A stretch of DNA of 45,109 bases from Candidatus Yonathbacteria bacterium RIFCSPHIGHO2_02_FULL_44_14 (GTDB taxonomy: Bacteria; Patescibacteriota; Minisyncoccia; Phycocordibacterales; UBA1550). Below, in pieces: positions 127 to 40,362 of this stretch. Position 1 is the first letter of the stretch. The number at the start of each line of letters is the position of its first letter. The notes under the pieces were generated by a model, which ran no database searches, was not told where the DNA came from, and was given only the letters and a program-made list of their open reading frames with translations. The DNA lies in contig MHUT01000009.1 in assembly GCA_001823535.1 (NCBI GenBank), forward strand, positions 1 through 45,109, in the 5' to 3' direction. The position numbers and the translations under genes are program-made.

Positions 127-810
127 TCAGGCCTTATTCTGCTTACTTTTTCTCCATTCCTCTATTTTTTTGTGGTCGCCACCAAGGAGGACTTTGGGGA
201 CGCGGTATTTTTTGCCTTTCCATTCTAGGACTTCGGGGCGGGTGTACATCTCGGGCGATGCCGTAGCGCCAGTCTTCAAGTAGCGTTCTTCCTCAAGCGA
301 CTCATGTCGTCCAAGCACGCCTTCAATCTGTCTTGCGCATGCGTCTACGACGACCATTGCTGGCACTTCCCCACCCGTGAGTACAAACGGTCCCACGGAA
401 ACCTCCTCTGCCTTAAAAATTTTCTTTACGCGCGCATCAATGCCTTCATAGCGGCCGGAGATGAGCACAATGTCGGTGTATTTGGTTACAAGTGCTTTTG
501 CATACACATTGGTAAACTGCTTGCCTCCTGGCGCGAACAAAATTACTTTGGTCTTTGTAGCTTTCTTCTTTGCGATGCTTTTTGCAATCTTTTCAAGAGT
601 GCGGAGAAGTGGCTCAGCGGTCATTACCATTCCTGGACCTCCTGCATATGGGCGGTCATCTACTTTGCCCCACTTGTTGCCAGAAAGTTCGCGTGGGTCA
701 TAATATGCAACAGAAATATGCTTTGCTTCCTGAGCACGACCAAGAATCGATGCATCTATATAGGGGCGCACGGCTTCGGGGAAGATGGTAACGATGTGAA
801 AACGAATCAT
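127..810 (-). CDS. trmD: tRNA (guanine-37-N1)-methyltransferase TrmD
   Basis: MIRFHIVTIFPE start, VDDRPYAGGPGMVM, SGRYEGIDARV and FVLTGGEVPAMV motifs. Start moved to the ATG at 810. Confidence 0.97.
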   Translation of the reverse strand: MIRFHIVTIFPEAVRPYIDASILGRAQEAKHISVAYYDPRELSGNKWGKVDDRPYAGGPGMVMTAEPLLRTLEKIAKSIAKKKATKTKVILFAPGGKQFTNVYAKALVTKYTDIVLISGRYEGIDARVKKIFKAEEVSVGPFVLTGGEVPAMVVVDACARQIEGVLGRHESLEEERYLKTGATASPEMYTRPEVLEWKGKKYRVPKVLLGGDHKKIEEWRKSKQNKA

Positions 811-4765: not shown

Positions 4766-5857
4766 CTATGTAGTTTCGATTATTCCTCCGCCAAGGCATT
4801 CATTCCCATCATAGAGTACTACTGACTGCCCTGCATCAAATACTGCGGGTTTTTCAAGCCGAAGCGAGAGAGTATTGGTATTCAAAGCTGTAATTTTGCA
4901 CTTGTGTTGCTCGCCATGGTACCGTACTTGTGCTGTATAAGTTTTTTTGGTATCTGGGGGCACTCCGCCACAAAAACTTGCTTGGGATGCTCGTAGTTCC
5001 TGAGAGGCACATTCTAGGGCTGTTTTCTGCATATGCGCCACCGTGATCGTATTCGCGACAAGGTCCTTCTTAACAACATAAAACGGCGTATCATCTGCAC
5101 TTTTCTTCGTCACGGTAAAACCATGTCGTTCGCCTAGTGTATAAAAATATGCACCGGAGTGAGTACCGATTGCCTCTCCTTTTTCATTCAGCACGCTCCC
5201 CTCTTTCTCTTTTATAAAATGTGCAAGAAAATCTTTCATATCAAGTTTCCCCACAAAACAGAGACCCTGACTGTCATTCTTTTCCGCTACGGGAAGACCA
5301 AACTTTTGTGCAAGTGCGCGGACCTGTGACTTTTTGTAACCACCGATTGGGAAAAACGTTTTACTCAATTGCTCCTGCCCGAGTGTCCACAAAAAATATG
5401 ATTGATCTTTTGTGGCGTCTACCCCCGCAAGCATTTTGAACTTGTTTTCTTTTTTATCATGTACCACCTGCGCATAGTGCCCCGTCGCCACAAAATCAGC
5501 ACCTTCTTTCGTTGAGCGACGAAAAAATGCACCAAACTTTACCTCGCGGTTGCACATCACGTCGGGGTTCGGCGTGCGCCCAGCCTTGTACTCACGAATC
5601 ATGTAGTCCGCAACACCTTCTTTATATTCCCTTTCAAAATCCCAAGTAAGGAGTGTTATTCCAAGCGTCGCTGCCACACGCATCGCATCAAGACGTTCCT
5701 CGCGCCAAGTGCATGGCAAAAAATCCGGTTGCCATACTTTCATAAAAACACCGGTCACTTCATACCCTGCTTTCTGTAGAAGCGCTGCGGAAACCGACGA
5801 GTCCACTCCGCCAGACATTCCCACAAATACCTTTCCTTTCGATTTTTTCGCTACCAT
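4766..5857 (-). CDS. mnmA: tRNA 2-thiouridylase MnmA
   Basis: GMSGGVDSSV PP-loop, TPNPDVMCNREVKFG, KDQSYFL, SQGLCFVG. The ATG at 5857 is preferred as start. Confidence 0.97.
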   Translation of the reverse strand: MVAKKSKGKVFVGMSGGVDSSVSAALLQKAGYEVTGVFMKVWQPDFLPCTWREERLDAMRVAATLGITLLTWDFEREYKEGVADYMIREYKAGRTPNPDVMCNREVKFGAFFRRSTKEGADFVATGHYAQVVHDKKENKFKMLAGVDATKDQSYFLWTLGQEQLSKTFFPIGGYKKSQVRALAQKFGLPVAEKNDSQGLCFVGKLDMKDFLAHFIKEKEGSVLNEKGEAIGTHSGAYFYTLGERHGFTVTKKSADDTPFYVVKKDLVANTITVAHMQKTALECASQELRASQASFCGGVPPDTKKTYTAQVRYHGEQHKCKITALNTNTLSLRLEKPAVFDAGQSVVLYDGNECLGGGIIETT

Positions 5858-9391: not shown

Positions 9392-12181
9392 TTATTCTTT
9401 TATCACGATATTTATCAGCTTGTTTGGAACCACGATAATCTTCGAAAAAACCATCCCTTCCATCCATTTTTGCACTCCAGGGCGGGCTAGCGCCATCTCT
9501 TTTACCACATCTTCCTCTGTATCTCGAGATACAATAATCGTGTCGCGCAACTTTCCATTCACCTGCACAGCGACCGTCACTTCACCTTCAACACATTTGG
9601 CTGGGTCGGCTATTGGCCACGGTTCAAGGTGAATAGAATTTTTGTTACCAAGATCGCGCCACAGCTCTTCGGTAATATGTGGCGCAAATGGTGCGAGGAG
9701 CACGAGAAGGACTTCGAAATCATTCTTGGAAACAGTTTCTATTTTTTCCAATTCATTCAAAAGAATCATCAGCGATGAAATAGCAGTATTAAAATTAAAT
9801 TCTTCAATATCCTCACCTACTTTTTTGATGGTCTTGTGAAGTGCCACTTCTGCCCTCAACCCATCTTCTGTTTTTGAAACCTTTTCTTTTAGCCGCCACA
9901 CACGCTCAAGAAACCTGCGTGGACCAACGATGCTTTTTGTGCTCCATGCGACCGATTGTCCAAATGGACCCATGAACATTTCATACAAACGCATGGTGTC
10001 TGCGCCATACATAGAAACAATATCATCCGGGTTCACCACATTCCCCCAACGTTTGCTCATTTTGCGTCCATCTTCTGCAATAATAAGTCCGACATTTTGA
10101 AGTCGATTAAATGGTTCGTCGTAGTTTACAACACCTATGTCGTATAAAAATTTATGATAAAAACGCGCATAGATAAGATGGCGTGTTGAATGCTCGGCAC
10201 CCCCAACGTACATGTCCACCGGTGACCAATACTTTTCTTTTTCTTTATCAACAAGCATATTTGTATTGTGCGGATCAATAAACCGCAAATAGTACCACGA
10301 AGACCCTGCCCACTGTGGCATCGTGTTCGTCTCACGCTTGCCTACGTCACCACAATTTGGACACGGAACATTCACCCAGTCAGGAATACCCGCGAGTGGC
10401 GACTCTCCTGTTCCTGTTGGCTCGTAGGATTCCACCTCTGGCAAAACCACAGGCAAATCTTCTTCAGGGACAGGAACAACACCACACTTCTCACAGTGAA
10501 TAAGTGGAATCGGCTCACCCCAATAACGCTGGCGAGAGAACACCCAATCCTTAAGGCGATACTTGGTGACCCATCGTCCTTTTACGAAGTCAGTGATTTT
10601 CTTTTTTGCGTCTTCGTTTGGCGTGCCGTCAAACTGACCAGAATTTATTAGTCTGCCGTCATCAAGATACACTGATTGTTTTTTTACATCAGTCAGTTCA
10701 ATTAAGGCCTCTTTAACGAAATCAGTAACTTTTTCATGATTTAAGGCATCTTCAACTTTCATCTCAACAATACTCTCACCCTCCATAAGAGTTAGGGTGC
10801 TGGTATCAACACCTCCTACATGAAATAAAATATTACGTGTTCCGTCATCTTTATAACCAAAAGCTCCTATGTATTGTGCATCATCGTCTTTAATTTTAAG
10901 CAACAATTCTTCAAAAAGTTCTCTCTTCAGACAAGTCAGTTCATCTTCCCCATCTTCTGGACGTCCGCCAAAGGAGGAAATCATCCCTGGTCTCGAAGGA
11001 GCATTAGCATCTCTTTTTTGAAAAATAAATGTACCAGTGTTTGTTTCTAAAATTGCACCCACCCCCCGTATTTTTTTTATATCGTGAGCAACCACCCTTT
11101 TAATTGACAGCTCGAACTTCTTCGCAAATTCAAAATCCCTCTCATCGTGCGCAGGAACAGCCATTACTGCGCCAGTGCCATAGTGTCCAAGCACATAGTC
11201 CGCGACAAAAAGAGGAAGGTTCTCGTTATTTGCGGGGTTTATAACACTCACCCCTTCAATCTTCACTCCAGTTTTATCGCGACCTTCTGCAGTGCGCTCA
11301 ATTTCAGTGCGCGCTTTTGTTTCGGTGCGATACTTTTCAACTTCGCCCCAATTTGCAATCGACTCCTTCAACTCATCAATGAGTTTATGCTCCGGCGCAA
11401 GCACACAATATGTCGCACCAAAAAGCGTATCGAGGCGCGTCGTGAATACCGTGATTTTTTTCTCGCTTCCCTCGATAGCAAAATCAATTTCAGCGCCCTC
11501 GCTTCGACCAATCCAGTTTTTCTGTGCTTCTTTGATAGATACAGGCCAATCGAGTTTATCAATATCAGCAAGCATGCGATCCGCATAGTCGGTGATACGA
11601 AGTACCCACTGACGCATTGGTTTTTTCTCAATTGGGGTATCACAGCGTTCGCATTTACCATCTTCAAGATCTTCGTTCGCAAGGCCTGTCTGGCAAGTTG
11701 GGCACCAGTTAATCGGCTCATATGATTCGTACGCGAGCCCCTTTTTAAACATCTTCAAAAAAATCCATTGTGTCCATTTATAAAAAGTAGGATCCGTGGT
11801 GTTTATCTCGCGACTCCAGTCATAATCAAACCCAATCATCGAAAGTTGTTCCTTGTACCGTTTGGTATTTTTTTCTACAGCGACTCGGGGGTGTACTTTG
11901 TTTTTTATTGCATACTGTTCTGCGGGCAGACCGAAAGCATCCCATCCCATTGGATGAAGCACGTTGAATCCCTGCATGCGTTTCATACGAGAATAAATAT
12001 CAGTTGCGATATATCCCTTTGGATGCCCAACATGGAGCCCGTCCCCTGATGGATACGGGAACATATCGAGTACATATTTTTTTGGCTTCACAGAATTCTC
12101 GCCTGCGCTATAGACACCAGACGCGCTCCACACATCTTGCCATTTTTTTTCGATTACTTTGTGGTCGTACTTTTCAGACAT
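9392..12181 (-). CDS. leuS: Leucine-tRNA ligase with inserted NUDIX domain
   Basis: MFPYPSGDGLHVGH (HIGH), KMSKR (KMSKS), CP1 editing motifs (TTRLDT, GTGAVMAVPAHDERD). ATG at 12181. Confidence 0.97.
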   Translation of the reverse strand: MSEKYDHKVIEKKWQDVWSASGVYSAGENSVKPKKYVLDMFPYPSGDGLHVGHPKGYIATDIYSRMKRMQGFNVLHPMGWDAFGLPAEQYAIKNKVHPRVAVEKNTKRYKEQLSMIGFDYDWSREINTTDPTFYKWTQWIFLKMFKKGLAYESYEPINWCPTCQTGLANEDLEDGKCERCDTPIEKKPMRQWVLRITDYADRMLADIDKLDWPVSIKEAQKNWIGRSEGAEIDFAIEGSEKKITVFTTRLDTLFGATYCVLAPEHKLIDELKESIANWGEVEKYRTETKARTEIERTAEGRDKTGVKIEGVSVINPANNENLPLFVADYVLGHYGTGAVMAVPAHDERDFEFAKKFELSIKRVVAHDIKKIRGVGAILETNTGTFIFQKRDANAPSRPGMISSFGGRPEDGEDELTCLKRELFEELLLKIKDDDAQYIGAFGYKDDGTRNILFHVGGVDTSTLTLMEGESIVEMKVEDALNHEKVTDFVKEALIELTDVKKQSVYLDDGRLINSGQFDGTPNEDAKKKITDFVKGRWVTKYRLKDWVFSRQRYWGEPIPLIHCEKCGVVPVPEEDLPVVLPEVESYEPTGTGESPLAGIPDWVNVPCPNCGDVGKRETNTMPQWAGSSWYYLRFIDPHNTNMLVDKEKEKYWSPVDMYVGGAEHSTRHLIYARFYHKFLYDIGVVNYDEPFNRLQNVGLIIAEDGRKMSKRWGNVVNPDDIVSMYGADTMRLYEMFMGPFGQSVAWSTKSIVGPRRFLERVWRLKEKVSKTEDGLRAEVALHKTIKKVGEDIEEFNFNTAISSLMILLNELEKIETVSKNDFEVLLVLLAPFAPHITEELWRDLGNKNSIHLEPWPIADPAKCVEGEVTVAVQVNGKLRDTIIVSRDTEEDVVKEMALARPGVQKWMEGMVFSKIIVVPNKLINIVIKE

Positions 12182-12191
12182 TAAACATAGT

Positions 12192-12235
12192 ATAACAAAA
12201 CCCTCGTCTTTGCTCAAAGACGAGGGTTTTGTTAT
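12192..12235. terminator. Intrinsic terminator hairpin
   Basis: ataacaaaaccctcgtcttt..aaagacgagggttttgttat, downstream of the 12241-13227 gene. Confidence 0.75.
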
Positions 12236-33245: not shown

Positions 33246-33470
33246 AGGTGCAAAGCGACACTAGGCTCTCGGTCGCGGATTTGGATAGCCTCGCTGAGTA
33301 CGGCTCATCTAAGACTAGCGTGTGGTCACGAATCACTAAATATATTGCTTCGAGTACTCGCAATCTACGTAAGTGCTCGCGACCCCGCCTCGCCATTTCG
33401 TCTGCTGACGAAATATGGCTGTGGCCTCCACAACTAAAAAACGACGCGCAGGCGTCGTTTTTCTTTACGT
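33246..33470. repeat. tRNA-Ala-associated structured element (degenerate)
   Basis: Core ggtcacgaatcactaa..taagtgctcgcgacccc (33324-33386) resembles the Trp/Tyr cores; inverted tccacaa copy; hairpins. Confidence 0.65.
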
Positions 33471-33472
33471 TG

Positions 33473-33546
33473 TGGACCCGGGGAGAATCGAACTCCCTAC
33501 CTCCGGAGTGCAAAACCGGCGCTCTAGCCAAGTGAGCTACGGGCCC
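33473..33546 (-). tRNA. tRNA-Ala(TGC)
   Basis: Cloverleaf GGGCCCG/CGGGTCC with G3:U70, loop TT-TGC-AC, TTCGATT T-loop. CCA is not encoded. Confidence 0.95.
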
Positions 33547-34677: not shown

Positions 34678-34759
34678 GCCGGGATGGCGGAATTGGTAGA
34701 CGCACACGACTCAAAATCGTGCGGGGCAACCCATGAGAGTTCGATTCTCTCTCTCGGCA
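34678..34759 (+). tRNA. tRNA-Leu(CAA)
   Basis: GCCGGGA/TCTCGGC acceptor, CACGA-CTCAAAA-TCGTG, long variable arm. CCA is not encoded. Confidence 0.95.
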
Positions 34760-34769
34760 CAAAATAATT

Positions 34770-36663: not shown

Positions 36664-38082
36664 TTAATCTTGCGATAATCTGGAAAACCTATAATCATCA
36701 GGCTTTAATTTAATGTCCATCTCAAGTGTAGCCTGATATGATCCTAAACATGGGTCAATATGCTCTTTAATGTCTGATAGTTTTTCAAGCACTGGCTCAA
36801 TATCAAGCCCTTTTTGTCTCAAAAACCGCATCATTCGTAAAGCATGAGCCCATGCATCTCTCTCTTCAGCAATGTACTCTTCTCTTGCTTTCTCTAATTT
36901 GCTATTTTTTATAAGATAGTATTTTTTAACTTTAAGGGACTCTTTGACTTCCTGAGGGACCTCTAGATTACTAATTTGATCAATACTAGCGCTATTAAAC
37001 GCATGTTGTAGATTTATCACACCAGCCTCTTGTGTAGGCTCTGTCACCGAAAGTGACGACTGATTATCTACAATATATAGTTCTGTGCCGATATCTGAAA
37101 GTTTCTCAACTATTTCACTAATTTCCTCAGCTATCTCACTAGAGTGAGGTTTAAGACTTGCGAATTCTAGCGCCTGCATTAAACTGTAAGATTCTGTAAG
37201 AAGTTTTTTATAAGTAAATTTGCCTTTATATGAATCAGAGGAATAGTTATCCTGCCATGAGTGTGCAATCTCGTGAAAAAGACTTAGCATTTTACCTTTC
37301 TCAGTGATATTTCCATACCCAACCATTCTCTTACTTGGAGACTCAAAAAACTTTCCTGTAGACATGGACGCTCCTCCATAGTTTTTTAAATCAAAATCCT
37401 CCACCCCTGGTTCAAAATGAAAGTCACTAGGCAATAAAGCATCCAGATCAAGTGCCATACCACTTCTTGTATCCTGTATAATAAGACTAGCTCTTGTAAA
37501 TCTATATGTATTTGAATTAAATATTTGATTTTCTATGTGCTCATAAAGAATATTCTTGTCTCCATATTGCTTCATGGCGCGAGAAATTTCCTGTTTATTT
37601 ACACCATTATTTTCACTTTCATTTAAACTGGTTTCATACGGTTGCTTCTCTTTCCTAAAAAGACTTTTTTCAAAAAAACTTTCGAGATTCTCTCTTAATA
37701 TTTTTCGTTTTAGGAGCGTCGGAGCAAATTCATTTTTTTCTTTTTGTACTAAGGCATTAGTTGTAAAATCATCACGACCCTGCCCAAGTCTTTCTGGAGG
37801 TTTAATCCCTTGTGGAATAAGTTCTTTAAAAAAATCTCCAGCCTCATTGCTAAAATCCTTGAGAGAGGTGTATCTGCTTGTTATTTCCTTTGATGTTTCT
37901 GCGCGTAGGCCCCCTATAGTAGAAATTCCTATGGAGTTGAGAACTGGCTCCAAACTATCAAGAAGTTTATCTTTTAGTGACAGTGAGCTTAACTCAGAAC
38001 CTCTTTCTGTTGCCTTCTCGACATTACTAAAAGAGGGCTCAGGTGGCTTCGTATAATTGTTCAAATTATTGAAAGATTCCAT
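36664..38082 (-). CDS. Hypothetical zincin-like metallopeptidase, AT-rich
   Basis: LFHEIAH (HExxH) and EERDAW. TG-A-TATAAT lies 6 nt before the ATG at 38082. Confidence 0.65.
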   Translation of the reverse strand: MESFNNLNNYTKPPEPSFSNVEKATERGSELSSLSLKDKLLDSLEPVLNSIGISTIGGLRAETSKEITSRYTSLKDFSNEAGDFFKELIPQGIKPPERLGQGRDDFTTNALVQKEKNEFAPTLLKRKILRENLESFFEKSLFRKEKQPYETSLNESENNGVNKQEISRAMKQYGDKNILYEHIENQIFNSNTYRFTRASLIIQDTRSGMALDLDALLPSDFHFEPGVEDFDLKNYGGASMSTGKFFESPSKRMVGYGNITEKGKMLSLFHEIAHSWQDNYSSDSYKGKFTYKKLLTESYSLMQALEFASLKPHSSEIAEEISEIVEKLSDIGTELYIVDNQSSLSVTEPTQEAGVINLQHAFNSASIDQISNLEVPQEVKESLKVKKYYLIKNSKLEKAREEYIAEERDAWAHALRMMRFLRQKGLDIEPVLEKLSDIKEHIDPCLGSYQATLEMDIKLKPDDYRFSRLSQD

Positions 38083-38125
38083 ACACAAATTATATCATAA
38101 ACTAGGTTCAGTCCCGCTTCCGGCT

Positions 38126-38390
38126 TTCGAGTCCTCGTGGGCCTCGCAATGACAACAATGCCAGATGACTTTCAGTATCTGGCATTGTCATTGCGGGCCC
38201 ACGAGTCCGCGGTCCCGAGTTACTAAGTATTTTACCACGTTTCACTTGTAAAATCCTAAGTACTCGCGACCCCAGCTCGACTGTCGCCTTGCGACATGGC
38301 TCCGCTTTTCGAGTCCTCGACGCAAGCCAAGCAGTTGGCTTGCTTGGGCCCGCAAATGAAAAGCACCGCTTAAGCGGTGCTTTTCATTTG
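38126..38390. repeat. tRNA-Trp 3'-end mirror array
   Basis: Inverted copy 38126-38149, direct copy 38191-38205, interrupted inverted copy 38308-38355, and two long hairpins. Confidence 0.9.
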
Positions 38391-38461
38391 CGGGCCCACG
38401 AGGACTCGAACCTCGGTCTGCGCGTTTGGAGTGCGATATTCTACCACTGAACTATAGGCCC
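38391..38461 (-). tRNA. tRNA-Trp(CCA)
   Basis: GGGCCTA/TGGGCCC acceptor, G73, loop CT-CCA-AA, CGAGG-TTCGAGT-CCTCG. The anticodon stem is imperfect. Confidence 0.9.
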
Positions 38462-39905: not shown

Positions 39906-40219
39906 TTGTGCGCCGGCGAATTAGCAAATTCGAGTCTTGGACTACAGGATTCGAATCCTTACAAAAGCCAACTGCTTGGCTTTTTCCCGACGCTACAAAA
40001 ATCGAAGCCCCATACTCTTTCGAGTATGGGGCTTGATTTCTTGTGCGCCGGGAAAGTCGGCCCCGAGTTACTAAATCGCTTCGCTCCTAAGTACTCGCAG
40101 CCCCGGCTCACTGTCGCCTTGTGACATGTTCCGCCTTTCGAATCCTTACGCAAGCAAAGCAGTTTGCTTGCTCCCGGCGCACAATTAAAAAACTCCTCAT
40201 TTGAGGAGTTTTTTAATTG
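39906..40219. repeat. tRNA-Tyr 3'-end mirror array
   Basis: Direct copies 39906-39916 and 40041-40054; interrupted inverted copies 39950-39998 and 40137-40184; two long hairpins. Confidence 0.9.
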
Positions 40220-40302
40220 TGCGCCGGGAAGGATTCGAACCTTCGAAGCCCGGAGGCGAGAGATTTACAGTCTCTTGTGATTGACCACTCCACCACCGAC
40301 GC
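40220..40302 (-). tRNA. tRNA-Tyr(GTA)
   Basis: GCGTCGG/CCGGCGC acceptor, A73, AGAGA-CTGTAAA-TCTCT, long variable arm. CCA is not encoded. Confidence 0.96.
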
Positions 40303-40306
40303 ATAT

Positions 40307-40362
40307 GTGAGCGAGCGTTTCGTTCCCCAGTCAGCAGACAGGGGAACGAAACGCTCGCTCAC
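40307..40362. repeat. Perfect 22-bp inverted repeat
   Basis: gtgagcgagcgtttcgttcccc / ggggaacgaaacgctcgctcac. Confidence 0.85.

What the first reader, a model, noticed from the sequence alone, without database searches (positions are those of the whole stretch)
38126..38402. tRNA-Trp is followed by a mirror array of its own 3' end
The order on the plus strand is: inverted T-arm/acceptor copy (38126-38149), hairpin, 15-nt direct copy (38191-38205), conserved core, inverted copy split by a 25-nt hairpin at the T-stem/acceptor junction (38308-38355), terminator hairpin, gene. The core (ggtcccgagttactaa..ctaagtactcgcgacccc, actgtcgccttgcgacatg, ccgcttttcga) is shared with the Tyr locus, yet the tRNA-derived parts are locus-specific. 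A common scaffold is therefore being fitted to different tRNA ends. It could be a tRNA-targeting miniature element, an attB decoy against integrating phages, or a regulatory RNA. I know of no named element with this architecture.
Basis: partly seen in the sequence, partly recalled or inferred. Interest (0 to 1): 0.9.

Follow-up and report, generated by a model that had tools for sequence, protein, structure and literature searches.

The report
Structured insertion modules behind tRNA genes
Behind most tRNA and tmRNA genes of these tiny "candidate phyla radiation" bacteria sits a previously undescribed non-coding module: a conserved folded core flanked by a mirror copy and a direct copy of that particular tRNA's own 3' end. 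It looks like a miniature tRNA-end-specific insertion element whose enzyme is still unknown.

Summary
On the minus strand, tRNA-Trp is followed by a terminator palindrome, an antisense copy of its 3' end split by a small hairpin, a conserved core, a 15-nt direct copy, a second hairpin and a second antisense copy. The same core follows tRNA-Tyr and tRNA-Ala. A covariance model finds about 150 copies in 90 Patescibacteria loci. They lie almost always 40-140 nt downstream of, and co-oriented with, a tRNA (18 isotypes) or tmRNA. All 22 core base pairs covary, and the fold is strand-specific (the tRNA-sense strand). The flanks match the cognate tRNA only. The direct copy always starts at T-loop C56 and ends just past the discriminator. 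A close relative has an empty tRNA-Tyr site and a different module class at tRNA-Ala. Units form arrays, sometimes with ORFs between them. Four independent assemblies reproduce the array. I found no Rfam family, paper, phage or plasmid match, and no recombinase nearby. Best reading (about 0.4): integrase-less micro-islands that insert at tRNA 3' ends through a folded single strand. Main rival: an RNA domain of read-through pre-tRNA.

The parts
38390..38461 (-). tRNA-Trp (CCA anticodon). No CCA is encoded; the gene is followed by CAA.
   Evidence: ARAGORN; Rfam
38388..38410 (-). S1: the tRNA-Trp segment from the T-loop to discriminator+CAA. This is the segment that is copied downstream.
   Evidence: (D13, I17)
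38354..38389 (-). HP1: terminator-like hairpin (A-run, GC stem, U-run). It is the centre of the perfect palindrome 38345-38398.
   Evidence: I2
38345..38353 (-). AS-acc: antisense copy of the acceptor 3' strand plus discriminator
   Evidence: I2
38321..38344 (-). P1a: small hairpin GCAAGCCA-ACUGC-UUGGCUUGC with the conserved ACUGCU loop. It splits the antisense copy.
   Evidence: D1
38308..38320 (-). AS-T: antisense copy of the T-stem 3' strand and T-loop. It ends opposite T55.
   Evidence: I17, D5
38211..38308 (-). Conserved core: P2 (A-R-S-C / G-S-Y) enclosing hairpin P3 (38281-38298), then GGGG, then the long imperfect hairpin P4 (38212-38270).
   Evidence: CM hit of 85 bits; covariation; fold
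38191..38210 (-). S2: direct copy of the tRNA-Trp 3' end. The last 15 nt are identical to 38388-38402.
   Evidence: D13
38151..38190 (-). HP2: hairpin of a second, truncated unit
   Evidence: I11, I18
38126..38149 (-). AS2: second antisense copy of the tRNA-Trp T-arm and acceptor, unsplit
   Evidence: I3, D3, D5
38105..38125 (-). Start of a second core (AGCCGGAAG...) that breaks off. This unit is truncated.
   Evidence: D3
40219..40302 (-). tRNA-Tyr (GTA)
40041..40217 (-). Tyr unit 1. It consists of HP1 40184-40217, AS-acc 40172-40183, P1a 40149-40171, AS-T 40137-40148, core 40059-40137 and S2 40041-40058.
   Evidence: I1, D1-D4, D6, D8, D9; 61.8 bits
39906..40040 (-). Tyr unit 2, degenerate. 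It consists of HP2 39997-40040, AS 39985-39996, a P1a-like hairpin 39963-39984, AS-T 39950-39962, a short body and S3 39906-39920. The whole stretch 39921-40217 is absent at the same site in relative L024.
   Evidence: D2, D4, I5
33472..33546 (-). tRNA-Ala (TGC)
33321..33470 (-). Ala unit, short form. It consists of a terminator hairpin (~33435-33466), a short antisense UGUGGA (33427-33432), the core 33324-33427 and a short direct copy CCACA (33321-33325).
   Evidence: (95.6 bits)

Best explanation
The array is built from units of a family of 150-190-nt non-coding insertion modules. These modules occupy the 3' ends of tRNA and tmRNA genes in Patescibacteria.

Unit anatomy, read on the tRNA strand:
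1. An intrinsic-terminator hairpin.
2. An antisense copy of the tRNA segment T55/C56 to discriminator (+1-4 nt). In the long form it is split by a hairpin with an ACUGCU loop.
3. A conserved three-helix core.
4. A direct copy of the same tRNA segment.

Shown:
- The anatomy above, and the covariation and strand-specific fold of the core.
- The sharp C56 boundary and the locus-specific arms.
- Arrays, and an empty site in a relative.

Inferred:
- The two direct copies are the 'regenerated target / displaced fragment' pair of an insertion at the T-loop-to-3'-end sublocation of the tRNA gene, as for tRNA-gene islands. Here the island is a micro-island without an integrase.
- The antisense copy lets the sense strand of the unit fold back on the tRNA end. 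This places the conserved core exactly at the T55|C56 junction, where a trans-encoded strand-transferase would bind and cut. That enzyme would be of tyrosine-recombinase or HUH type and has not been identified.
- The carried terminator keeps the tRNA gene properly terminated.
- Repeated insertion builds arrays, and recombination between direct copies deletes units.

Not explained: how the arms are re-specified for each tRNA. Their near-perfect Watson-Crick match, with no excess of wobble pairs, points to DNA-level templated copying or gene conversion rather than RNA-level selection.
For: Direct copies:
- They run from T-loop C56 to discriminator +1-4 nt in 25 of 25 inspected long-form units. 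This is the identity block expected for tRNA-gene integration; PMC4383910 describes the regenerated target plus displaced fragment, and PMC1762012 describes a T-loop attB.

Turnover between the window and its relative L024:
- L024 has an empty tRNA-Tyr site where the window has about 300 nt.
- L024 has a different module class at tRNA-Ala.
- The Trp module is shared.

Arrays and cargo:
- Tandem arrays of up to 4 units occur (L011, L017, L019, L030).
- ORFs lie between units in L019 and L014.

Spread:
- The same core sub-types occur behind different tRNAs and in different CPR classes.

Transcription argues against an RNA role:
- Every unit begins with a hairpin plus U-run, so most tRNA transcripts should stop before the core.

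Mismatch spectrum:
- S1:AS is 94% Watson-Crick with G.U about equal to A.C (13 vs 9).
- S2:AS has decayed to 82% (G.U 23, A.C 34).
- Core helices, in contrast, show many G.U pairs and compensatory changes.

Strand:
- The core fold is strand-specific (72 of 76 copies). This is as expected for a single-strand substrate.
Against: - No recombinase, HUH, RT or Cas1-like gene lies in the 45-kb window, and none recurs in 90 loci.
- No circular junctions or unit-number variants were seen in four assemblies of this population.
- All polymorphisms seen could be losses by recombination between direct repeats in old arrays, rather than gains.
- The model does not explain how three separate arm segments come to match a new tRNA while the core stays about 90% identical.
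- Strand-specific covariation with G.U pairs is the classical signature of an RNA.
- Metatranscriptome assemblies contain related copies.
- The near-universal presence behind tRNAs (47 of 63 and 54 of 84) and the conservation across CPR classes would also fit a host function.
Confidence: 0.4

Rival explanations
1. The module is a cis-acting RNA domain of read-through pre-tRNA. When RNA polymerase passes the terminator, the antisense arm invades the tRNA's T and acceptor stems. The result is a 37-bp hairpin continuous with the terminator stem. The downstream sense copy then offers the freed 5' acceptor strand, or the antisense arm, an alternative partner. The conserved core binds a protein or ligand that decides between the states. 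The module would therefore act in tRNA 3' maturation, quality control or turnover.
For: - All 22 core pairs covary, 96% of cells are paired against 73% in shuffles, and slid controls give 24-52%.
- The tRNA-sense strand is the more stable fold in 72 of 76 copies.
- The module is always co-oriented with, and directly behind, a tRNA or tmRNA.
- The MFE of the 274-nt precursor pairs S1 with AS and the tRNA 5' end with S2, with z = -12.
- Related copies occur in metatranscriptome contigs, one of which spans tRNA-Trp through the antisense arm.
- The module is present behind about two thirds to three quarters of the tRNA genes in these loci.
Against: - An intrinsic terminator precedes every core.
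- The arms show no wobble enrichment, and S2 decays.
- Close relatives differ in presence and class at the same tRNA, so no single tRNA needs the module.
- Arrays and ORF-containing arrays are hard to reconcile with a cis RNA role.
- The RNA contigs carry no strand information and may derive from DNA.
Confidence: 0.27
2. The module is a stand-alone tRNA-like RNA. The antisense and sense arms pair to form an acceptor/T-stem minihelix that copies the neighbouring tRNA. In this mimic the small ACUGCU hairpin stands where the D and anticodon arms would be, and the core stands in place of the T-loop. RNase P, RNase Z and the CCA-adding enzyme would excise and finish it, as they do for tmRNA or mascRNA, and it might even be aminoacylated.
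For: - The module alone folds with an AS:S2 closing helix plus P1a, P3 and P4 (-86.4 kcal/mol, z = -8).
- The topology (5' strand interrupted, 3' strand continuous) matches a tRNA.
- The sense copy keeps the discriminator and the same CA(A) trailer as the gene.
- tmRNA genes carry the module too.
Against: - The short form (39 of 84 modules) has only about 5 bp of arm and no acceptor mimic.
- AS:S2 pairing is only 82% Watson-Crick, with A.C at least as frequent as G.U, so this helix is not under visible selection.
- The T-loop is buried in a duplex.
- No promoter is evident between the terminator and the module.
Confidence: 0.1
3. The arms are a passive by-product of replication template switching at two natural palindromes, the terminator hairpin and the T-loop TTCGAA. 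This produces a sense-antisense-sense triplication of the tRNA end. The core is an unrelated element that later settled at the centre of the palindrome, or that spreads between loci by gene conversion.
For: - AS ends and S2 begins at the centre of the palindromic T-loop.
- The palindromes are perfect (I1, I2).
- The arm mismatch spectrum looks DNA-like.
Against: - The same ordered architecture, including the conserved ACUGCU hairpin inside the antisense arm, recurs at dozens of loci and 18 isotypes.
- tRNAs whose T-loop is not TTCGAA (TTCGAGT, TTCAATT) show the same boundary.
- An empty relative site shows that the terminator came in with the insert.
Confidence: 0.08
4. The array is an attB decoy or defence. 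The extra copies of the tRNA 3' end would divert or poison integrases of tRNA-targeting phages.
For: Each unit adds one direct copy and one inverted copy of the usual att identity block.
Against: - Nothing tested bears on this idea.
- A decoy needs no conserved structured core.
- No defence-family hits were found for the neighbouring ORFs.
- No viral contig carries the core.
Confidence: 0.03

Closest known systems
Genomic islands and prophages integrated at the T-loop sublocation of tRNA/tmRNA genes by tyrosine integrases (Islander concept, PMC4383910; Ms6 attB in the tRNA-Ala T-loop, PMC1762012)
   Same: - The target is the 3' part of tRNA and tmRNA genes.
- The insert regenerates the gene's 3' end.
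- A displaced fragment, starting in the T-loop and ending just past the gene, marks the far end.
- Tandem arrays occur, and empty sites exist in relatives.
   Different: - The units are only 150-190 nt and carry no integrase or any other gene.
- They carry an inverted copy of the identity block and a conserved strand-specific structured core.
- One family serves 18 isotypes within and across genomes.
Elements that recombine as a folded single strand: CTX phage attP(+) with XerCD/dif, and integron attC x attI (own knowledge)
   Same: - The order target copy - loop - inverted copy - body - target copy is what a single-strand exchange with a hairpin mimicking the target would leave behind.
- No recombinase needs to be carried on the element.
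- Arrays resemble integron cassettes, sometimes with ORFs.
- The fold is strand-specific, with bulges and mismatches.
   Different: - No dif-like or R''/R' boxes are present, and there is no adjacent IntI.
- The target varies from tRNA to tRNA.
- The enzyme is unknown.
IS200/IS605 'peel and paste' elements and their ORF-less derivatives (PATEs, REP/REPIN with RAYT) (own knowledge)
   Same: - The elements are non-coding and based on imperfect hairpins.
- The substrate is single-stranded and orientation-specific.
- Flank and target recognition uses base pairing with an internal guide placed 5' of the bound hairpin.
- The left-end hairpin doubles as a transcription terminator, as in IS200.
- The enzyme may be single-copy and encoded elsewhere, as for RAYT.
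   Different: - The guide here would be 5-25 nt rather than 4-5 nt.
- The target segment is duplicated.
- No Y1 transposase was found in any locus.
tRNA-like RNA domains: the tmRNA tRNA-like domain, viral TLS, mascRNA (own knowledge; Rfam families tested)
   Same: In the long form the 5' and 3' arms can form an acceptor/T-type helix with discriminator, and an insert replaces part of the cloverleaf.
   Different: - There is no Rfam match.
- The T-loop is not preserved.
- The short form lacks the mimic.
- The helix is not under detectable selection.

Membership tests
tRNA-gene (tDNA) integrated island (tyrosine integrase) | Regenerated target gene plus a displaced 3' fragment as direct repeats at the two ends | tested here: met
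   S1/S2 direct copies run from C56 to discriminator +1-4 nt, with median 94% identity over 17 nt. In the window: 38388-38402 / 38191-38205, and 40217-40230 / 40041-40054 / 39906-39919.
tRNA-gene (tDNA) integrated island (tyrosine integrase) | Integrase gene inside the element | tested here: not met
   The units are 150-190 nt and non-coding. No integrase lies in the window, and none recurs in 90 loci.
tRNA-gene (tDNA) integrated island (tyrosine integrase) | Empty site in related genomes | tested here: met
   In L024, tRNA-Tyr is followed directly by the L33 promoter and gene. The window has about 300 nt inserted there. A loss by repeat recombination is not excluded.
IS200/IS605 / PATE / REP-RAYT | Y1 HUH transposase (TnpA or RAYT) in the genome | not testable with these tools
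   None was found in the held DNA. Whole genomes could not be scanned.
IS200/IS605 / PATE / REP-RAYT | Imperfect subterminal hairpins with bulges, acting strand-specifically | tested here: met
   P4 has a conserved bulged A and a U.U mismatch, and the fold is strand-asymmetric in 72 of 76 copies.
IS200/IS605 / PATE / REP-RAYT | Insertion 3' of a fixed 4-5-nt target without target duplication | tested here: not met
   An 18-25-nt segment (about 5 nt in the short form) is present on both sides.
Integron cassette / attC | R''/L''...L'/R' boxes (RYYYAAC / GTTRRRY) and a nearby IntI/attI | tested here: not met
   No conserved GTTRRRY lies at the unit borders, and no integrase was found.
MITE | Element-specific terminal inverted repeats plus a short target-site duplication | tested here: not met
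   The inverted arms are copies of the local tRNA, not of the element.
Any Rfam 15 RNA family (including tmRNA, tRNA-like elements, ribozymes, omega/bridge-type RNAs if curated) | Covariance-model match at or near the gathering score | tested here: not met
   Only tRNA, tmRNA and rRNA were hit. Sub-threshold hits are miRNA-hairpin noise.
Intrinsic (Rho-independent) terminator (part HP1 only) | GC-rich hairpin followed by a U-run | tested here: met
   This is seen directly in the sequence at the start of nearly every unit. The simple scan flags 40005-40034 and 33437-33462.
tRNA-like RNA (acceptor/T minihelix mimic) | A closing helix of acceptor plus T stem that is conserved by selection | tested here: inconclusive
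   The helix forms in the Trp and Tyr units. Family-wide, AS:S2 is 82% Watson-Crick with A.C at least as frequent as G.U. It is absent from the short form.

The most novel reading that the evidence does not exclude
The module is a programmable, base-pair-guided insertion system. The antisense arm acts as a 5-25-nt guide, in folded single-stranded DNA or in RNA. It reads the 3' end of any tRNA or tmRNA gene and directs a still unknown trans-acting enzyme, bound to the conserved core, to cut and join at T55|C56 and at the gene's end. The arms would be rewritten from the target at each insertion. This would be a new class of guide-dependent mobile element that has colonised most tRNA genes of a whole bacterial radiation.
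Probability: 0.2. Interest if true: 0.92.

Novelty: new variant of a known kind. Interest (0 to 1): 0.8.

Why it matters
If these are mobile units, they are the smallest tRNA-gene-integrating elements known. They would also be the first in which one conserved scaffold is fitted to nearly every tRNA of a genome. That implies a target-reading mechanism based on pairing or templated copying, which could be of practical interest for programmable insertion.

If instead the core is a functional RNA, then most tRNA genes of Patescibacteria carry an unknown 3' accessory domain. That would bear directly on how these reduced organisms mature or control tRNAs.

In either case the finding adds a widespread, well-supported structured element. 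The covariance model is in hand and about 150 copies are aligned. The element is absent from Rfam, and it explains a recurrent source of assembly breaks behind CPR tRNA genes.

Tried and rejected
- **Known RNA families:** Rfam at gathering score and at E-value up to 10, on the window and 23 loci, returned only tRNA, tmRNA, rRNA and miRNA-hairpin noise.
- **Ribozymes and introns:** hammerhead, twister and group II domain V motifs were compared by eye and rejected, because the conserved cores are absent.
- **Retroviral-type primer-binding site:** rejected. The antisense arm complements the genomic trailer (N-CAA), not CCA.
- **Opposite-strand sRNA ending at the bidirectional terminator:** rejected by the strand test.
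- **Kissing interaction between the ACUGCU loop and the P3 loop (YAGCARA):** the consensus sequences are complementary, but inspection of about 17 short-form units by eye showed no covariation. Inconclusive.
- **Linked enzyme:** ORF clustering over 45 and then 90 loci found only housekeeping families such as Ddl, UvrA/C, RluD, SmpB and LeuRS. Pfam on 37 window ORFs gave only housekeeping hits or no hit.
- **Cargo ORFs:** the L019 199-aa ORF and the window's 474-aa ORF have no significant Pfam or PADLOC match.
- **Other collections:** viral contigs gave 0 hits. Phage and plasmid records gave no match.
- **RNA evidence:** only assembled metatranscriptome contigs from other organisms were available, without strand information.
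- **Population variation:** four DNA assemblies of this population show no empty site or circle junction.
- **More empty/filled pairs:** the only related locus pairs were window/L024 and L020/L042, and the latter has unrelated flanks.
- **Literature:** eight completed full-text searches found no description of the element. One of them retrieved the two background papers on tRNA-gene integration that are cited here.

Full report
**Observation.** tRNA-Trp lies on the minus strand at 38390-38461. Downstream of it on that strand the order is as follows:
- a terminator-like hairpin, 38354-38389;
- an antisense copy of the acceptor 3' strand, 38345-38353;
- a 24-nt hairpin, 38321-38344;
- an antisense copy of the T-stem and T-loop, 38308-38320;
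- a core, 38211-38308;
- a direct copy of the tRNA end, 38191-38210, whose last 15 nt are identical to 38388-38402;
- a second hairpin, 38151-38190;
- a second antisense copy, 38126-38149;
- the first few bases of another core, then the next gene.

The repeat finder confirms each piece (I2 is a perfect 27+27 palindrome; also I3, I17, D13, D1, D3, D5). It also confirms the blocks shared with the tRNA-Tyr locus (D6, D8, D9; 88-95% identity). The Tyr locus holds two units, 39906-40217. A shorter version follows tRNA-Ala at 33321-33470. Contigs from four independent sequencing runs reproduce both arrays without a single difference, breaking only at the palindromes. The array is therefore not an assembly artefact.

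**A family, tied to tRNA ends.**
- A degenerate pattern for the long core hairpin found 45 loci in species-representative genomes. All are Patescibacteria: Paceibacteria including Yonath-, Taylor- and Nomurabacteria, plus Saccharibacteria and Gracilibacteria. The pattern found 45 more loci in metagenome contigs and none in viral contigs.
- A covariance model built from 45 copies finds 152 non-overlapping hits in the window plus the 90 loci.
- In the first set, 54 of 84 tRNA or tmRNA genes have a module within 500 nt downstream on the same strand. In the independent metagenome set, 47 of 63 do.
- Conversely, 61 of 78 and 53 of 74 modules have such a gene upstream, and most of the rest lie at contig ends.
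- Eighteen isotypes and tmRNA are involved (L005, L013, L038).
- In the window all three core copies lie behind tRNAs and none lies elsewhere.

**The core is a structured single strand.**
- RNAalifold and the model agree on the fold: helix P2 encloses a variable hairpin P3, followed by GGGG and a long imperfect hairpin P4 with a bulged A and a U.U mismatch.
- On 82 distinct sequences, 96.2% of cells pair, against 72.9% in shuffles. All 22 pairs show double changes. Sliding the partner by 1-3 columns drops pairing to 24-52%. That alignment is model-fitted, but the MAFFT alignment already showed the same covariation.
- The tRNA-sense strand folds better than its complement in 72 of 76 copies, with a mean difference of 6.5 kcal/mol (p 2e-13).
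- The functional strand is therefore the tRNA strand. This test cannot tell RNA from single-stranded DNA.

**The arms are copied from the local tRNA.**
- The antisense and sense flanks match the cognate tRNA end and not other tRNAs.
- There are two forms. The long form (45 of 84) has 18-25-nt arms. The short form (39 of 84) has about 5-nt arms, and there the ACUGCU-loop hairpin is the terminator itself.
- In every long unit inspected, the direct copy starts at T-loop C56, immediately after the core's GUGAC. It ends 1-4 nt past the discriminator. The antisense copy ends opposite T55.
- ACTGCT occurs in 36 of 121 distinct upstream regions, against 1.8% background, and 33 of those 36 are in a hairpin loop.
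- The pairing between the tRNA end and the antisense copy is 94% Watson-Crick, with G.U about equal to A.C (13 vs 9). The pairing between the antisense and downstream sense copies is only 82% Watson-Crick, with A.C 34 and G.U 23.
- Unlike the core, therefore, the arms show no sign of wobble-tolerant selection. They look templated at the DNA level, and the distal copy decays.

**Turnover.** L024 is a close relative with the same tRNA set.
- It shares the Trp module.
- Its tRNA-Tyr is followed directly by the L33 gene's promoter region, where the window has two units ending in a third copy of the tRNA end.
- Its tRNA-Ala carries a long-form unit with a different P4, where the window has a short form.
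- Elsewhere, units are stacked up to four deep (L011, L017). They are mixed with a second body type (L019, L030, L045). They occasionally enclose ORFs: 199 aa in L019, inside a 1.7-kb insert bounded by 32-nt repeats of the tRNA-Ala end, and 717 aa in L014.
- Core sub-types are shared between different tRNAs and different CPR classes.

**What is absent.**
- No Rfam family matches.
- Phage and plasmid records give no match.
- Eight completed full-text searches found no paper describing it.
- No recombinase, transposase or reverse transcriptase lies in the window or recurs near the modules.
- RNA evidence is limited to unstranded metatranscriptome contigs of related copies.

**Interpretation.**
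- The direct copies running from the T-loop to just past the gene are exactly the "regenerated target plus displaced fragment" that marks elements integrated into tRNA genes (PMC4383910; a T-loop attB is described in PMC1762012).
- The order copy - loop - inverted copy - body - copy is what is left when a folded single strand, whose hairpin mimics the target, is joined into it. This is the case for CTX phage at dif and for integron attC (own knowledge).
- The layout target - linker - guide - bound hairpin parallels the left end of IS200/IS605 elements, whose left hairpin also acts as a terminator (own knowledge).
- I therefore rank first a non-autonomous micro-island. It is mobilised in trans, carries its own terminator, and has a core that positions the enzyme at T55|C56.
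- The weak points are the missing enzyme, the unexplained re-specification of the arms, and the fact that every polymorphism seen could be a deletion between repeats.

**Rivals.**
- The main rival is an RNA domain of read-through pre-tRNA. Thermodynamically the antisense arm takes over the tRNA's 3' half, and the tRNA's 5' end then pairs with the distal copy. This rival is weakened by the terminator in front of every core, by the arm mismatch spectrum and by the turnover.
- A stand-alone tRNA-like RNA is weaker still, because the short form lacks the mimic and the closing helix is not conserved.
- Pure template switching cannot explain the recurrent conserved parts.
- The decoy idea is untested.

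**Verdict.** This is a real, widespread and apparently undescribed element. Its anatomy is firmly established and its mechanism is open.

Noticed in passing
window 9392-12217 (-): The leucyl-tRNA synthetase ORF carries a NUDIX domain (PF00293, aa 383-491) directly after the editing domain. This is an unusual fusion or insertion.
   Followed up: no
L019 2090-2180; L045 ~500-590 (-); L004 ~4870-4990 (-); L030 1525-1560: A second body type sits between antisense and sense tRNA copies: GCCC(N)AUUGAGC - hairpin - C(N)AAUGGGGC - ACUG - hairpin (loop UGUAAG) - GAGAUCC. It uses the same arm logic with a different core.
   Followed up: partly
L019 2532-3131; L014 1180-3333: ORFs are sandwiched between module units, like cassettes: a 199-aa protein with no Pfam or PADLOC match, and a 717-aa protein with GEWKGFYxDPKT repeats.
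   Followed up: partly
window 33472-33546, 34678-34760, 38390-38461, 40219-40302: None of the four tRNA genes encodes CCA. Each is followed by CA or CAA after the discriminator, and the downstream direct copies keep this trailer.
   Followed up: partly
window 40307-40362: A 26-nt inverted repeat (96% complementary) lies between the clpB stop and tRNA-Tyr. It is probably the clpB terminator or a processing hairpin upstream of the tRNA.
   Followed up: no
L024 ~5038-5039: The relative's assembly has NN exactly at the centre of the tRNA-Trp terminator palindrome. Palindromes of this family break or blur assemblies; one search shows contigs ending at them.
   Followed up: no
window 38069-38098 (+): A promoter-like site (TTGAAA-18-TATCAT, 10 of 12) points antisense into the Trp array. 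The same AT-rich stretch is the likely -10 of ORF 36664-38088 on the minus strand.
   Followed up: no
window 36664-38088 (-): A 474-aa ORF directly downstream of the Trp array has no Pfam family above threshold (weak ORF6C hit, E 0.05) and no PADLOC hit.
   Followed up: partly
L030 1-1600: In one Saccharibacteria MAG the modules follow the tRNA-Ile that sits after the 16S rRNA gene. No 23S was found within 6.4 kb downstream, so the rRNA genes appear to be unlinked.
   Followed up: no
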